From NCBI GenBank assembly GCA_019057865.1, contig JAHLWP010000012.1, positions 1-64,000 of the forward strand: DNA of 64,000 nt. Reading direction: 5' to 3'. Below are positions 40,945 to 45,881 of the stretch, one piece after another. The position numbers and the translations under genes are program-made. Within the stretch, counting starts at the first letter, position 1. The number at the start of each line of letters is the position of its first letter. Under the pieces are notes generated by a model. That model saw nothing but the letters and a program-made list of their open reading frames with translations, made no database searches and was not told the origin of the DNA. The stretch comes from Promethearchaeota archaeon (GTDB lineage Archaea; Asgardarchaeota; Lokiarchaeia; Sigyniarchaeales; SOKP01).

Positions 40945-41101
40945 GGTTTAATTTATTGAGTGTTTAATTAATTAATTTATATTCAAATACAATACTCCTT
41001 TATCAAAAAATATATTCATTAGTATTATCCAGTGTAATAAATAACCTAATAAATACTAGCATATTTATCAAAATATAAAAACATAATTTATAGTGAAAAA
41101 C

Positions 41102-43039
41102 ATGAGTAAAGCTAAAGGAAAACCTTTACCAGATGATGTTAAAGGATATTCACAAGTTAGACTCGATGTCGATCTAACAACTGGGAAAATTGAAAAAACT
41201 GAATTATCAGGAGAATTCTGTCGCGATTGGATTGGTGGATATGGCTTCGGTGCTCGCATTTTGTGGGAAGAGCTGAAACCTGGCATAGATCCACTCGGTC
41301 CGGAGAATGTTTTTGTTTATGCTCAGGGACCATTCCCAACCACCATTCTGCCAACTAGCTCAAAGTATGGCGTTTTTGCCAAATCACCTTTAACGGGAAT
41401 GTTTGGAATGGCAATATCTTCGGGAAGTGTAGGAGCTCAAGCTCGTCGTGCTGGAATTAATGTAATTGTCTTTAAAGGAAAAGCTCCTGAACTCTCTTAC
41501 TTTGTTATTGACGATGATGATGATTATTTAGTTCCATGCGAAAAAACTTTAAAGGGAAAAGGAACCTTTGAAACTGAAGATCTTTTAAGAGAGGAATTTC
41601 AGGACCAACGATTAGCAGTAATGAGTATAGGACCTGCTGGTGAACGTATGAGTAGAATGGGATGTATTACTAATGATCGAAACAGACAAGCGGGAAGAAC
41701 AGGAATGGGCGCTGTTATGGGATCCAAAAACCTTAAAGCAGTTTGTTTTAGGGGCACTAAAGGTATAAAAGTTGCACATCCAGTTGAATTTTATAAAATA
41801 GCCAAGAAACTCATAAAGGTAGCTAATGGACCTGCGACTGCTAAATATCGAGATCTTGGAACACCTGCAGGACTTACAAGCTATAACAAACTTGGGATGA
41901 TGCCTACTTTTAACCATCGCGAAGGTACCTGGGATAAGATTACTAATGGTTCCTTCACTGGTGATACACTTAATGAGGATTGGGTTGTAAAGAAAGTTGC
42001 TTGCTCACAATGCTCCATTGCTTGCGATCATCTAGCAAGAGTCCCCAAAAATCATCCTGACTGGCCAAATCTTATCGCAAGTGTTGATATTGAACTTTTG
42101 TATGGATTTGGAACTGGATGTGGTAATGCTGATTGGCCAACTGTCTTCAAGTGTATTAGTTTGTGTGATGATTTAGGAATTGATGCTATTAGTGGAGGAG
42201 TAACTGCTGCTATGGCTTGCGATCTTTATACAGACGGCTTAATAACTAAAGAGGATTTAGGATTCGAACTTCCATTTGGTTCAACAACGAATTTAGTAAA
42301 ATTTACAGAAGAAATGATCCTTGGAAAAGGATTTGCAGGAGAAATTTTTGGTCATGGAACCAGAGTTGCCGGTGAAAAATTAGAAGAGAAGGGAAAGAAG
42401 GGAGCTAGTACGTATGCAATGCAAATTAAAGGGTTAGAGATGCCTGCATTTGATATCCACGGAATGTCGTCCTTCGCCGTTGGGGAGAGCGTATCCATTA
42501 GAGGCGCTTGTCATTTGCGTAATGGATCTTATGGACTCGATGCTAAAGGCACTTTTGATCGTTTCAGTTATGATAAACCTCTAGAACGTGGAAAAGCAAT
42601 TAAGGCAGTTGAGGATGTATATGGCATCATCGATTCTTTCATCATTTGTAAATTTACACGCGGAATTTATGAGAATGATGCCGAAATGGCAAAAGTTTAC
42701 GAGTTAGTAACTGGTCTTCCAATGGATGAAGAATTAATGCTTGAAAGGGGAGATGCAATTGTTACTCTTTCAAAGTGTTTTAACATCAGAGAAGGTTGGA
42801 CCAGAGCAGATGATCATCCCCCAGAAAGATTCTTTAAAATGGCTCACACAAAGGGTCCTGCTAAAGGAGTGACCCTAAAAGAAGATGGATTTCAACAATT
42901 GTTATCGGGTTATTATGAAGCAAGAGGTTGGGATAAAGAAACAGGTATTCCTACTGATGAAACCTTGAAAAAATTAGGAATGGAGTTCGTTATTGGTAAT
43001 TTAAAACCAGCACAAACAAAAAAAGGAGGTAAAAAATAA
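41102..43039 (+). CDS. aor: Tungsten-dependent aldehyde:ferredoxin oxidoreductase family protein
   Basis: KSPLTG, IGPAGE, AGRTGMGAVMGSKNLKA, CSQCSIAC, DDLGIDAIS and RGACH motifs. Stop overlaps the next ATG (TAATG). Confidence 0.92.
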   Translation: MSKAKGKPLPDDVKGYSQVRLDVDLTTGKIEKTELSGEFCRDWIGGYGFGARILWEELKPGIDPLGPENVFVYAQGPFPTTILPTSSKYGVFAKSPLTGMFGMAISSGSVGAQARRAGINVIVFKGKAPELSYFVIDDDDDYLVPCEKTLKGKGTFETEDLLREEFQDQRLAVMSIGPAGERMSRMGCITNDRNRQAGRTGMGAVMGSKNLKAVCFRGTKGIKVAHPVEFYKIAKKLIKVANGPATAKYRDLGTPAGLTSYNKLGMMPTFNHREGTWDKITNGSFTGDTLNEDWVVKKVACSQCSIACDHLARVPKNHPDWPNLIASVDIELLYGFGTGCGNADWPTVFKCISLCDDLGIDAISGGVTAAMACDLYTDGLITKEDLGFELPFGSTTNLVKFTEEMILGKGFAGEIFGHGTRVAGEKLEEKGKKGASTYAMQIKGLEMPAFDIHGMSSFAVGESVSIRGACHLRNGSYGLDAKGTFDRFSYDKPLERGKAIKAVEDVYGIIDSFIICKFTRGIYENDAEMAKVYELVTGLPMDEELMLERGDAIVTLSKCFNIREGWTRADDHPPERFFKMAHTKGPAKGVTLKEDGFQQLLSGYYEARGWDKETGIPTDETLKKLGMEFVIGNLKPAQTKKGGKK

Positions 43040-43658
43040 TGTCAAAAGCTGCAACTAAAAAAAGAGGAGGAAAGATGCATCAATTCATCATCGTGGATCC
43101 AAATTTATGTACGGGATGCGAAACTTGGACCAGGTCTCCTGGAAAGCACAAAACCTGTGAATCCGTATGTAGTTTTGTACATGATGGTGAATTCAATCCA
43201 ATAAATACAAGAATTCATAGAGTTCGAATTGAACCTGTTTTTAATATCGCTTTAGCGTGTCAGAAGTGTGAAGACTCACCCTGCGTGAGAGCGTGTCCTG
43301 AGAAAGCGCTAAGTCAAGACCCAGAAACGGGTTCAATTATGGTAGATGACGATAAATGTAATGGCTGCGCCTTCTGTATGAATTAAGAGAATTTCTCTCT
43401 AATATGCGGAAAAGGGCGTGCGATTTCGGAGTTCTGAGTCTACATATTGAATCTCAGAAAGCACTTATCTGTGATCTTTGTGAAAATATGAAGGAAGATT
43501 ATATTGATGAAGAATCCGGAATTAAGGAACCCCAATGCATATTGGTTTGTCCTAAAGAGGCGATTTCTCTTAAAAATGTGGAACAGATTGGAGAAGAAAC
43601 CCGTATTGAAGCCGTTAAAAGACTTTTTTCATCAATACTAGAAGAGTATGAAGGTTAA
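43039..43658 (+). CDS. 4x[4Fe-4S] electron-transfer subunit of AOR (DmsB/AorA-like); predicted spliced CDS join(43039..43122,43153..43379,43412..43658), 185 aa
   Basis: The ORF track splits it into 115 aa and 84 aa pieces. Removing the 30-nt and 32-nt inserts gives 558 nt in frame, with 16 Cys in four groups: CTGCETCESVC, CQKCEDSPCVRAC, CNGCAFCIRAC and CDLC...CILVC. Confidence 0.85.
43123..43152 (+). other. Candidate BHB-type mRNA intron 1 (30 nt)
   Basis: Central helix UGCG(43117-20)/CACA(43147-50) with one C-A mismatch. 3-nt bulges AAA(43121-23) and AAA(43151-53). Inner stem CUU/AAG plus a CCAGG-UCU-CCUGG hairpin. Outer exon-exon stem UACGGG/CCUGUG. Excision gives TGC GAA ACC TGT. Confidence 0.72.
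43380..43411 (+). other. Candidate BHB-type mRNA intron 2 (32 nt)
   Basis: Outer stem GCGCCUU/AGGGCGU (7 bp). Central 4-bp helix CUGU(43374-77)/GCGG(43406-09). Bulges AUG(43378-80) and AAA(43410-12). Inner hairpin AUUA-AGAGA-auu-UCUCU-c-UAAU. Cutting after the 2nd bulge nt gives TGT ATA AGG GCG TGC and removes the stop and frameshift. Confidence 0.8.
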
Positions 43659-43904: not shown

Positions 43905-45881
43905 TTGTCTGAAAAACAGACCAAGGATAATAATGAACCAGAATTGCCAATTGTTGGCGTTTTCGTGTGTCGCTGAGGAATAAACATCGCTGGTATCTTA
44001 GATGTCCCTAGAATCGTGGAAGAACTTAATAGATTAGAAGGTGTAAAAGCTTTTGAATATCTTAGTATGTGTACTGAAGGAGGATCTTCTTATATAAAGG
44101 AACAACTTGAAGAAAGTAAAATTGAGAGAATTGTTGTAGCTGCTTGTACTCCTAGAACTCATCAACCAGTTTTTCACGCTATACTCGCTGAAGCTGGTTT
44201 ACCTCCTAGATATTTGGAATTTGTTAATATAAGAGAACATTGTAGCTTCGTTCATCAAGCTCCAGAAGTACGTGAAAAAGCAATTCAGAAGGCAATTGAA
44301 CTCACAAAAGCAGGAATAGCACGTGCTAGATTATTAGAAGATGTTCCAATAAAAGTAGTACCTGTTGAACCAGTGGCTCTAGTTGTAGGAGGAGGTATTG
44401 CTGGATTATCTGCTGCTGTTGATTTAGGGGATGCTGGATTTAAAGTTTACCTCGTTGAAAAGAATACTACAATTGGAGGTAGGATGAGCCAATTAGACCG
44501 AACATTCCCAACGGACGATTGTTCAATATGAATTCTCGGTCCTAAAATGTTAGAAGCAAATCGTCATCCAAACATTGAGATTCTATCATATAGTGAAGTC
44601 ATTGAAGTTGATGGATATATTGGAAATTTCAAGGTTAAAGTTAAAAGAAAGTCACGGTTCGTAGATGAAATTAAATGTACTGGTTGTGGAGCATGTCCAG
44701 AAGTATGCCCTATTTATGTACCTAATTATTTTGATGAAAATCTTTCGGCGAGAAAATGCATTGATATCGCTTTTGCTCAAGCTGTTCCTGCAATTTTTGA
44801 TATTGCAAGAGAATCTTGTGTAGAATGTTTTGCTTGTGTTGATTCATGTGAAGAAGATGCTATTGATTTTAGTATTCAAGATAAAGAAATTGAACTTAAA
44901 GTTGGTACTATAATTGTTGCTACAGGGTGGGATCTCTATCAAGGACCAGATTATGGATATGGTACTTTCGATAATGTTGTAAATCAAATCGAGTTGGAGA
45001 GGATTCTTGCGCCTAATGGTCCTACTTATGGACATTTAAAACGACCTTCTGATGGAAAACGTCCTACTAAAGTATTATTCATCAATTGTGTTGGATCGAG
45101 AGACATAAATAAAAATGCTCACTGCAGCGTTATTTGCTGTAATTTATCTCTTAAAAACTCAAAACTCATCAAATTAGAATATCCTGATTCTCAAATAGTT
45201 TGTTGTTATATAGATATGAGATGTGCAGGAAAAGATTATGAAGAGTACTATAGACGTTCACGAGAAGCAGGAATTATCTTTCTAAAAGGATTAGTTGGTA
45301 AAATTGAAGAAGATCCATTAACTAAAAATCTAAAAGTACAGTTTGAACCTGTTGGCACAGATACAATTGTCGAGATGGAGTTTCATATGGTTGTATTATC
45401 ACCAGCATCACTCCCATCTAAAGGTACTGTGGAGATAGCGAGAGTTTTAAATATGGAAAAAAGCCCAGATGGATTCCTAAAAGAATTTCATGCTCGACTT
45501 GATCCAATCAGTACAAAGGTTCCTGGAATATATATATGCGGTTCAGCTCAAGGACAAAAAGAGATTGATAAAGCAGTCAGCCAAGCAAAGGGTGCTGCTT
45601 CTACAGCAGGTATACCAATGGGCAAAAAAGAATACGTCATGGAGTTAATTCGGGCTACACCTTTAGATGAACGTTGTGCCAAATGTTACAAATGTATAGA
45701 GTCATGTCCATATAGTGCGATTTCAGTAAATGAGAAAGGAATTCTAGTAGTGAATATTATTCTATGCAGAGGATGTGGTACTTGTGAAGCCGTTTGTCCT
45801 TCTAAAGCAATTGAATTAACATACTTTAGAGATGATCAATATATGGCATTAATTGATGAATTACTTCCTATTGCGGATTAA
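43905..45881 (+). CDS. hdrA: Heterodisulfide reductase subunit A-like flavoprotein; selenoprotein with two Sec (UGA 43974-76, 44529-31), about 658 aa
   Basis: One frame from TTG 43905 (AAGGTG upstream): VGVFVCR-U-GINIAG ... FPTDDCSI-U-ILGPKM ... Joins ORFs 44016..44531 and 44547..45881. Both TGAs sit at positions that are Cys in HdrA. Confidence 0.9.

What the first reader, a model, noticed from the sequence alone, without database searches (positions are those of the whole stretch)
43110..43159. Intron 1: in-frame 30-nt relaxed BHB hidden inside an open ORF
Seen: the insert keeps the frame but puts 10 extra residues between Cys2 and Cys3 of the first cluster (CTGCETWTRSPGKHKTCESVC), which should break [4Fe-4S] ligation. 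It has two AAA bulges, a central helix with one C-A mismatch and a GC-rich CCAGG/CCUGG hairpin. Inference: in-frame introns like this are invisible to ORF callers and may be undercounted. The imperfect helix suggests an EndA with relaxed specificity. An AAAC direct repeat at both ends leaves the DNA-level boundary ambiguous and could alternatively be an insertion-site duplication.
Basis: partly seen in the sequence, partly recalled or inferred. Interest (0 to 1): 0.8.

Follow-up and report, generated by a model that had tools for sequence, protein, structure and literature searches.

The report
In-frame tRNA-type mini-intron in ferredoxin gene
A 30-base stretch inside an iron-sulfur protein gene of an Asgard (Promethearchaeota) archaeon reads as ordinary coding sequence, but it is shaped and evolves like the small introns archaea cut out of tRNAs, so it is most likely spliced from the mRNA, which papers document inside the coding region of only one archaeal gene (cbf5).

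Summary
Window 43123..43152 is a 30-nt, phase-0, stop-free insert between Cys2 and Cys3 of the first CxxCxxCxxxC motif. The gene is the polyferredoxin coupled to aor.

- I found the same-site, same-length insert in six distinct lineages. About 40 other orthologues lack it exactly.
- RNAalifold, run without constraints, returns a BHB: a 6-bp exon-exon helix, a 4-bp central helix (exon UGCG with intron CRYA), two 3-nt A-rich bulges and an inner hairpin.
- Cutting between bulge nucleotides 2 and 3 removes exactly 30 nt and restores the C-E-T-C of intron-less orthologues.
- The hairpin is kept by compensatory changes.
- The insert shows no codon periodicity. In one clade 1 of 10 "third positions" vary, against 121 of 184 in the exons.
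- The genome has an (alpha-beta)2 EndA with the broad-specificity loop lysine, and an RtcB ligase.
- A second, frame-breaking 32-nt BHB intron lies 227 nt downstream. The exon after it is under strong purifying selection.

- The C-A mismatch is specific to this species.
- The AAAC "repeat" is the two bulges, not a target-site duplication.
- A 10-residue loop need not destroy cluster binding.

No transcript data exist. Earlier notes of this scan report similar mRNA mini-introns in other Asgard genomes, and one covers intron 2 of this gene.

The parts
43039..43122 (+). Exon 1 of the AOR-linked polyferredoxin gene. Its start overlaps the aor stop. It ends with Cys2-Glu (UGC GAA).
   Evidence: ORF list, Pfam Fer4 hits, alignment with intron-less orthologues.
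43110..43115 (+). Outer (exon-exon) helix, 5' strand UACGGG. It pairs with 43154-59. A43116 follows unpaired.
   Evidence: RNAalifold consensus. 5-6 of 6 pairs in carriers, against a mean of about 4.6 in intron-less alleles.
43117..43120 (+). Central 4-bp helix, exon strand UGCG.
   Evidence: Pairs with CRYA of the intron; 23 of 24 cells paired across six carriers. TGCG in 6 of 6 distinct carriers against 6 of 19 intron-less alleles.
43121..43123 (+). 5' bulge AAA. Predicted cut between 43122 and 43123.
   Evidence: Geometry. Cleavage rule (between 2nd and 3rd bulge nucleotide) from PMC2738675.
43123..43152 (+). Intron 1: 30 nt, phase 0, no stop codon.
   Evidence: Absent exactly at this site from about 40 orthologues. 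Present at the same site and length in six distinct lineages.
43124..43146 (+). Inner helix and hairpin: C24-G46, U25-A45, U26-A44, internal loop, CCAGG/CCUGG stem (43130-34 with 43138-42), loop UCU.
   Evidence: 44 of 54 cells paired. 8 of 9 pairs show changes on both sides across carriers, on a hand-fitted register. 3 of 4 base pairs covary in the unbiased alignment.
43147..43150 (+). Central helix, intron strand CACA. A43148 gives the C.A mismatch; the other carriers have CGCA or CGUA.
43151..43153 (+). 3' bulge AAA. Predicted cut between 43152 and 43153.
   Evidence: PMC2738675 for the rule.
43153..43379 (+). Exon 2. It starts ACC UGU (Thr-Cys3) and includes the outer-helix 3' strand at 43154-59.
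43380..43411 (+). Intron 2: 32 nt, breaks the frame with a TAA, near-canonical BHB in Cys motif 3.
   Evidence: Same site and length in 8 distinct sequences. Recovered by my BHB and ORF-fusion scan. The exon after it has pN/pS 0.04-0.24.
43412..43658 (+). Exon 3, holding the rest of motif 3, motif 4 and the C-terminus.

Best explanation
Window 43123..43152 is a tRNA-type (bulge-helix-bulge) mini-intron inside the coding sequence of the iron-sulfur subunit gene that follows aor.

Proposed mechanism:
1. In the pre-mRNA, the exon sequence UGCG (Cys2 codon plus the first base of Glu) pairs with the intron's CACA to form the central helix.
2. An exon-exon helix (43110-15 with 43154-59) and an intron hairpin flank two AAA bulges.
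3. The (alpha-beta)2 splicing endonuclease cuts between the 2nd and 3rd nucleotide of each bulge (43122|43123 and 43152|43153).
4. RtcB joins the exons, and the 30-nt intron is released.
5. The product has the canonical C-T-G-C-E-T-C-E-S-V-C motif found in all intron-less orthologues.

What is shown:
- the anatomy;
- its conservation with compensatory changes in six lineages;
- the non-coding mode of evolution of the insert;
- the exact agreement between the predicted cuts and the orthologue junction;
- the presence of the enzymes;
- the need for splicing of the neighbouring intron 2.

What is inferred:
- that cleavage and ligation really happen on this mRNA;
- how efficiently they happen in this species, whose central helix has a C.A mismatch.
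For: 1. Distribution. The 30-nt insert is missing, to the base, from 17 of 18 same-genus orthologues first aligned and from 39 of 41 genus genomes with the gene. It is present at the same site and with the same length in G062, in P0001, P0004 and P0015, and in L044 and L046.

2. Structure. The unconstrained RNAalifold consensus of the six distinct sequences is helix(6)-1 nt-helix(4)-bulge(3)-helix ... helix(4)-bulge(3)-helix(6). In it 89.3% of cells pair, against 20-56% for slid partners, and the covariation score is reached by 1 of 500 shuffles. For L040 and L044 the plain RNAfold MFE is this BHB (-12.3 and -18.5 kcal/mol).

3. Compensatory changes. Pair (43124,46) is C-G in three sequences and U-A in three. 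Pair (25,45) switches between U-A and C-G. Pair (26,44) is U-A in L040 and C-G in its close relative L044. The apex pairs also switch.

4. Cleavage. The rule 'between 2nd and 3rd bulge residue' (PMC2738675) removes exactly 30 nt and gives GAA|ACN = Glu-Thr in all six. This matches the intron-less genes.

5. Not coding-like.
   - Type-B trio: variable sites by codon position are 24, 9 and 121 of 184 in the exons, but 3, 3 and 1 of 10 in the insert (Fisher p = 0.0007 for position 3).
   - Type-A trio: 6, 5 and 6 of 10 in the insert.
   - Exon pN/pS is 0.04-0.19. In type-B pairs all 3-7 insert differences are 'nonsynonymous' and none 'synonymous', although exon pS is 0.5-0.9.
   - Only 4 of 10 inserted residues are shared between own and G062.

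6. Inheritance. The two intron sequence types follow the exon tree (clades with support 0.995 and 0.909). Intron-less alleles are interspersed, and single-intron alleles exist: L044 has intron 1 only, L005 and L018 have intron 2 only. This is the pattern of an old intron with repeated exact loss.

7. Machinery. The EndA alpha subunit matches the A. pernix alpha subunit 3P1Z_B at 3e-35, and its NKPR lysine aligns with the specific-loop K44. The beta-like subunit has the catalytic His replaced by Asp. RtcB scores 1.7e-168. PMC5829648 reports the same EndA type with the L1 loop for Asgard archaea.

8. Intron 2 breaks the frame in the same mRNA. The exon after it is under purifying selection in carriers (pN/pS 0.04-0.24). 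This transcript therefore has to be spliced.
Against: - There is no RNA or protein evidence of any kind.
- The insert is a multiple of three and free of stops in all six variants. For a non-coding stretch that is mildly unexpected (my estimate is about 0.5 per independent lineage). It would let an unspliced mRNA still give a full-length protein.
- The C-terminal part of the translated insert is basic and fairly constant ([KR][RH]K-T). This is equally explained by the need to pair with UGCG and by the A-rich bulge.
- The motif is relaxed. One unpaired nucleotide (43116) faces the 3' bulge in all carriers. In this species the central helix has a C.A mismatch, and the single-sequence fold is not better than shuffles.
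- The protein family tolerates a long spacer at the equivalent place in motif 4.
- My genome-wide BHB scans show no excess over a mirror-topology control (82-84 against 100-104 hits). mRNA introns are thus not demonstrably common in this genome.
- The six sequences fall into two clades, so the effective sample is small. The apex register was fitted by hand.
Confidence: 0.72

Rival explanations
1. The 30 nt are translated. The protein simply has a 10-residue loop between Cys2 and Cys3 of cluster 1, and the RNA hairpin is incidental or serves another purpose such as pausing or stability.
For: - The insert is in frame and stop-free in all six variants.
- L044 has a complete uninterrupted ORF with the insert and no intron 2.
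- The basic K/R-R/H-K tail is fairly constant.
- Motif 4 of the same protein has a long natural spacer at the equivalent position. From general knowledge, Alvin-type ferredoxins carry an insertion between the second and third Cys of one motif.
Against: - There is no codon periodicity, and 'synonymous' sites are frozen while 'nonsynonymous' ones change.
- Changes are compensatory at the RNA level but radical at the protein level: F to L together with R to G in L040 against L044.
- The BHB geometry has cut sites that reproduce the orthologue junction exactly.
- Repeated base-exact absence in close relatives is hard to get by ordinary deletions. Outside this species the flanks share only 1-2 nt of microhomology.
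Confidence: 0.13
2. Facultative splicing. The intron is removed from only part of the transcripts, perhaps less in this species because of the C.A mismatch. Two protein isoforms, with and without the 10-residue loop, would then coexist, or the intron is on its way to becoming exon.
For: - An open frame of length 3n is kept in all carriers.
- The central helix is weakened only in own and L046, where it is fixed in two samples that differ by 2.9% in the exons.
- In the own sequence the BHB conformer competes with an alternative fold of equal energy.
Against: - Nothing shows retention.
- The insert shows no sign of selection on its peptide.
- The constant length is equally seen in intron 2 (32 nt, not a multiple of 3). 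Length constancy therefore does not argue for frame keeping.
Confidence: 0.1
3. A DNA-level insertion. This could be a miniature mobile element with an AAAC target-site duplication, or a slippage or palindrome artefact. The gene could also be a decaying pseudogene.
For: - An AAAC repeat sits at both ends in this genome, and the core is palindromic (CCAGG...CCTGG).
- The gene also carries a frame-breaking insert downstream.
Against: - The insert is single-copy in the 4.26-Mb genome; no match is longer than 14 nt.
- The AAAC repeat is absent in the other carriers.
- The insert is old and vertically inherited.
- Exons on both sides of both inserts are under strong purifying selection (pN/pS 0.04-0.27), so the gene is not a pseudogene.
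Confidence: 0.05

Closest known systems
BHB intron in the cbf5 (pseudouridine synthase) pre-mRNA of Crenarchaeota (Desulfurococcales, Sulfolobales; Watanabe 2002, Yokobori 2009 = PMC2738675)
   Same: - A small intron lies inside a protein-coding sequence.
- It has an unconventional (relaxed) BHB.
- The predicted cuts fall between the 2nd and 3rd bulge residues.
- The host has a hetero-oligomeric EndA.
- It is patchily gained and lost among close relatives.
   Different: - A different phylum (Asgard/Promethearchaeota) and a different gene (the Fe-S subunit next to aor).
- Two introns in one gene.
- This intron is in frame and stop-free, so it leaves no ORF signature.
- Splicing of cbf5 has been shown by cDNA and in vitro. 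Here it is inferred.
BHB intron in the 5' UTR of the Haloferax volcanii HVO_1309 mRNA (PMC7714728)
   Same: An mRNA is a substrate of the tRNA splicing endonuclease.
   Different: That intron is in the untranslated leader, and EndA cleavage at its BHB sites was confirmed in vitro. That paper states that cbf5 is the only other additional BHB intron reported in archaea.
Non-canonical and relaxed tRNA introns (HBh', hBH, BHL) cleaved by (alpha-beta)2 and epsilon2 EndA with a specific loop (PMC5829648)
   Same: - A 4-bp central helix.
- One canonical bulge closed by an inner helix (the 5' site here).
- A second site in a slightly irregular context.
- An enzyme type with the L1/CSL lysine is present in this genome.
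   Different: The substrate is an mRNA with no tRNA body. The 3' bulge faces one unpaired nucleotide instead of being lost.
HAC1/XBP1 unconventional mRNA splicing in eukaryotes (IRE1 endonuclease plus tRNA ligase/RtcB; general knowledge)
   Same: A very short intron (26 nt in XBP1) is removed from a coding sequence without a spliceosome. Structure-specific endonuclease cuts are followed by tRNA-ligase-type joining.
   Different: The nuclease and the RNA motif differ (twin stem-loops, IRE1). That splicing is regulated and shifts the frame. No homology is implied.

Membership tests
Archaeal BHB intron (EndA substrate) | 4-bp central helix flanked by two 3-nt bulges on opposite strands | tested here: met
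   UGCG pairs with CRYA, with bulges 43121-23 and 43151-53, in the unconstrained consensus. 23 of 24 central-helix cells are paired. The own copy has 3 bp plus C.A.
Archaeal BHB intron (EndA substrate) | Cuts between bulge nucleotides 2 and 3 give the functional exon junction | tested here: met
   Cuts at 43122|43123 and 43152|43153 remove 30 nt. This gives GAA|ACN (Glu-Thr), as in all intron-less orthologues.
Archaeal BHB intron (EndA substrate) | Outer helix contiguous with the central helix (strict hBHBh') | tested here: not met
   One unpaired nucleotide (43116, the third base of the Gly codon) separates them in all six carriers. The motif is therefore relaxed, not strict.
Archaeal BHB intron (EndA substrate) | Inner helix closing the 5' bulge, maintained by covariation | tested here: met
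   Pairs (24,46), (25,45) and (26,44) have changes on both sides. The apex hairpin is kept in all carriers.
Archaeal BHB intron (EndA substrate) | Host encodes a splicing endonuclease able to cut relaxed motifs, and an RtcB ligase | tested here: met
   Two PF01974 genes. The alpha subunit has the specific-loop lysine, and the beta-like subunit lacks the catalytic His. RtcB is present.
Archaeal BHB intron (EndA substrate) | Excision observed in RNA (spliced junction, circular intron) or in vitro | not testable with these tools
   No transcript data were available. The closest intron-less sequences (P0002, L049-L053) are genomic DNA of another species with 12% nt divergence and a different downstream context.
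Translated loop insertion in a CxxCx(n)CxxxC motif | Evolves as coding sequence (third-position bias, pN/pS well below 1) | tested here: not met
   In the type-B trio the insert has 3, 3 and 1 of 10 variable sites by codon position, against 24, 9 and 121 of 184 in the exons. There are no 'synonymous' changes where exon pS is 0.5-0.9.
Miniature mobile element with target-site duplication | Multiple copies, with a duplicated target at each copy | tested here: not met
   The insert is single-copy in the genome. The AAAC repeat is not present in other carriers.

The most novel reading that the evidence does not exclude
The intron is spliced only in part, or is being turned into exon in this species, where the central helix carries a C.A mismatch. 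One archaeal gene would then give two Fe-S subunit isoforms that differ by a 10-residue loop at cluster 1. That would be a first case of alternative, endonuclease-based mRNA splicing with a protein-level outcome in Archaea. More broadly, in-frame, stop-free BHB introns would be a hidden class that inflates Asgard proteins with spurious insertions.
Probability: 0.12. Interest if true: 0.85.

Novelty: new member of a known kind. Interest (0 to 1): 0.62.

Why it matters
The papers I found document tRNA-type splicing inside the coding region of only one archaeal gene family (cbf5), plus one 5' UTR. Here an Asgard archaeon, from the group closest to eukaryotes, has a metabolic Fe-S gene with two such introns.

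One of the two is invisible to gene callers because it keeps the frame. Public databases already hold proteins with the intron translated into them (P0001, P0004, P0015).

The case also gives a practical test for such hidden introns:
- same-site, fixed-length inserts;
- loss of codon periodicity;
- compensatory pairing;
- a BHB whose cut sites reproduce the orthologue junction.

The prediction can be tested directly with a 63-nt substrate or with junction reads.

Tried and rejected
- Single-sequence folding. It is not significant (z about -0.7), so I did not use it as evidence.
- Alternative register. Central helix AUGC (43116-19) with GCAC (43146-49) and a 4-nt 3' bulge works for own and G062 but fails in L039, L040 and L044.
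- Repeat or mobile element. blastn-short of both inserts against the genome gave nothing longer than 14-17 nt.
- Genome-wide strict and relaxed BHB scans combined with an ORF-fusion test, compared with a mirror-topology control. The counts were 82 against 104 and 84 against 100. There is no enrichment, although intron 2 was recovered. The four most promising other hits were adjacent genes or chance hits inside intact ORFs.
- Paralogous polyferredoxins flagged with 'stops inside'. They have no inserts; the stops lie upstream of the start.
- Search for spliced transcripts. The nearest intron-less alleles (P0002, P0003) are genomic contigs of a different species.
- ARAGORN tRNA-intron calls were taken only as context (predicted introns of 11-61 nt). 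I did not analyse them for BHB.
- I did not run structure prediction or complex prediction. Neither can tell spliced from unspliced.

Full report
**Locus.** The window is contig C14 of a 4.26-Mb, 87-contig genome. Related records are named Promethearchaeota, that is Asgard/Loki-type archaea. An aldehyde:ferredoxin oxidoreductase gene lies at 41093..43039 (Pfam AFOR_N and AFOR_C). Its stop overlaps the start of a small Fe-S gene. ORF callers split that gene into 43039..43386 (115 aa) and 43404..43658 (84 aa). Intact orthologues are single ORFs of 184-188 aa with four Cys motifs.

**The observation.**
- ten extra residues between Cys2 and Cys3 of motif 1;
- AAA at 43121-23 and at 43151-53;
- UGCG (43117-20) opposite CACA (43147-50), with one C.A mismatch;
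- the CCAGG/UCU/CCUGG hairpin;
- an exon-exon helix, 43110-15 with 43154-59;
- AAAC at both ends.

A43116 is unpaired between the outer and central helices. On this one sequence the fold is no better than shuffles (z -0.7). The BHB conformer is 0.2 kcal/mol above the MFE. The case therefore rests on comparison with other sequences.

**Distribution.**
- In a MAFFT alignment of 18 same-genus orthologues, only the own genome had the 30 nt. All others lacked exactly these bases.
- Among 54 genus genomes, 41 had the gene. Only one more, G062 (a Promethearchaeota MAG), had a full-length match. It carries a 30-nt insert at the identical site.
- A protein search found three truncated database proteins with a 10-residue insert at this spot: P0001, P0004 and P0015.
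- A degenerate DNA pattern found two further metagenome contigs. L044 has insert 1 but no intron 2. L046 is nearly the own species.
- This gives six distinct sequences: own, G062, L041, L039, L040 and L044. All are 30 nt long and sit at the same site.
- The nearest relative found, P0002 (12% nt divergence, genomic contigs), has neither insert.

**Structure.** RNAalifold on the six 63-nt stretches, with no constraint, returns a 6-bp outer helix, one free nucleotide, a 4-bp central helix, a 3-nt bulge, an inner helix, the 3' strand of the central helix, a 3-nt bulge and the outer helix.
- With this structure 89.3% of cells pair, against 20-56% when the 3' partners are slid by 1-3 columns. One of 500 column shuffles reaches the observed covariation.
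- The central helix is perfect (UGCG with CGCA or CGUA) in five carriers. Only the own species has C.A.
- For L040 and L044 the plain MFE is the BHB.
- The three basal inner pairs change on both sides. Pair (26,44) switches from U-A to C-G between the close relatives L040 and L044.
- With the apex register fitted per intron type, 44 of 54 inner cells pair and 8 of 9 pairs covary. No shuffle out of 5000 reaches this pairing. The fitting by hand biases this figure upward.
- All six distinct carriers have TGCG on the exon strand of the central helix, against 6 of 19 intron-less alleles (p = 0.005, not corrected for relatedness).

**Cut sites.** PMC2738675 states that EndA cleaves between the second and third bulge residues. 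Applied here, the cuts fall at 43122|43123 and 43152|43153. They remove 30 nt at a codon boundary and join GAA to ACN. This restores C-x-G-C-E-T-C-E-S-V-C in all six carriers, as in every intron-less gene. The 5-position boundary ambiguity that the AAAC repeat creates in this genome is resolved by the other carriers, which lack the repeat.

**Mode of evolution.** The exons are under strong purifying selection (pN/pS 0.04-0.19), with synonymous sites near saturation in many pairs. The insert behaves differently:
- In the L039/L040/L044 clade, variable sites by codon position are 24, 9 and 121 of 184 in the exons, but 3, 3 and 1 of 10 in the insert.
- In the own/G062/L041 clade the insert has 6, 5 and 6 of 10 (Fisher tests).
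- All differences within the first clade would be amino-acid changes and none silent.
- Own and G062 share 16 of 30 bases and 4 of 10 residues, while their exons are 76% identical.

The fairly constant basic tail of the translated insert is encoded by the 3' strand of the central helix and the A-rich bulge, so it needs no protein-level explanation.

**History.** In an exon-only tree, the own/G062/L041 intron type lies in one clade (support 0.995) and the L039/L040/L047/L044 type in another (0.909). Intron-less alleles are interspersed. Some alleles keep only intron 1 (L044) or only intron 2 (L005, L018). The simplest reading is an old intron inherited vertically and lost exactly many times, as described for cbf5. 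The insert is single-copy, so a mobile element with a target duplication is not supported.

**Machinery and neighbour.**
- The genome has two PF01974 genes.
- One is most like the A. pernix catalytic alpha subunit (3e-35). It keeps the lysine of the specific loop, which PMC5829648 links to cleavage of relaxed motifs.
- The other has Asp in place of the catalytic His, as expected of a structural beta subunit.
- PMC5829648 reports this (alpha-beta)2 type with the L1 loop for Asgard archaea.
- RtcB is present.
- Intron 2 (43380..43411, 32 nt) breaks the frame, yet the exon after it has pN/pS 0.04-0.24 among carriers. The mRNA must therefore be repaired at the RNA level. Intron 2 has a near-canonical BHB.

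**What remains open.**
- There is no transcript or peptide evidence.
- The open frame in all six variants, the natural long spacer in motif 4, the free nucleotide 43116 and the species-specific mismatch leave room for partial splicing or for a tolerated unspliced isoform.
- My genome-wide BHB scans show no excess over a mirror-topology control.
- A targeted screen of C-x2-C-x(8-16)-C-x3-C matches found only this locus. I therefore cannot say that such introns are common in this genome.

**Known work and earlier notes.** PMC7714728 says the cbf5 mRNA is the only earlier reported BHB intron outside tRNA and rRNA, and it adds a 5' UTR case. My searches found no paper on Asgard mRNA introns. Earlier notes of this scan report similar mini-introns in Fe-S and oxidoreductase genes of other Asgard genomes, and one covers intron 2 of this gene. 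I used them as leads only.

**Verdict.** This is a real feature, most likely a BHB mini-intron (confidence 0.72). It is a new member of the cbf5 kind, and it stands out for being in frame and stop-free.

Noticed in passing
window 43380-43411; L005, L018, L023, L039, L040, L041, L047: Intron 2 is exactly 32 nt in all 8 distinct carriers, but it comes in very different sequence families. In the L018/G062 type the BHB is shifted by one base: an 8-bp outer helix, a central helix UGCG/AGCA with a G.A, and a 7-bp inner helix. It still removes 32 nt and gives C-V-R-A-C.
   Followed up: partly
L044:7114-7176 (LAZR01001364.1); L005; L018: Some alleles carry only one of the two introns: L044 has intron 1 only, with a complete 195-aa ORF, and L005 and L018 have intron 2 only. 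The two introns are therefore lost independently.
   Followed up: partly
proteins P0001, P0004, P0008, P0015, P0024, P0039, P0048: Public database proteins of 98-141 aa are truncated calls of this gene. They run into intron 2, and in three cases they carry intron 1 translated as 10 residues. These are annotation artefacts caused by the introns.
   Followed up: partly
window 43117-43120 and orthologues: The Cys2 codon is TGC in every intron-1 carrier but mostly TGT in intron-less alleles (13 of 19). This fits selection on a synonymous site to keep a G-C pair in the central helix.
   Followed up: yes
window 44016-45881: The ORFs 44016..44531 and 44547..45881 are in the same frame. They look like one HdrA-type gene interrupted by an in-frame stop. 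Earlier notes of the scan read it as selenocysteine. I did not examine it.
   Followed up: no
own genome: ARAGORN finds only 18 tRNAs, 12 of them with predicted introns (11-61 nt, plus two of 876 and 1582 nt), several at odd positions. The tRNA set is probably heavily disrupted and under-predicted.
   Followed up: no
L049-L052 (P0002 contigs): The closest intron-less relative has the same aor-ferredoxin pair (88% nt identity) but a different downstream neighbourhood: a YdjM-family gene on the other strand and a CdhD-family gene, instead of the hdrA-like module.
   Followed up: no
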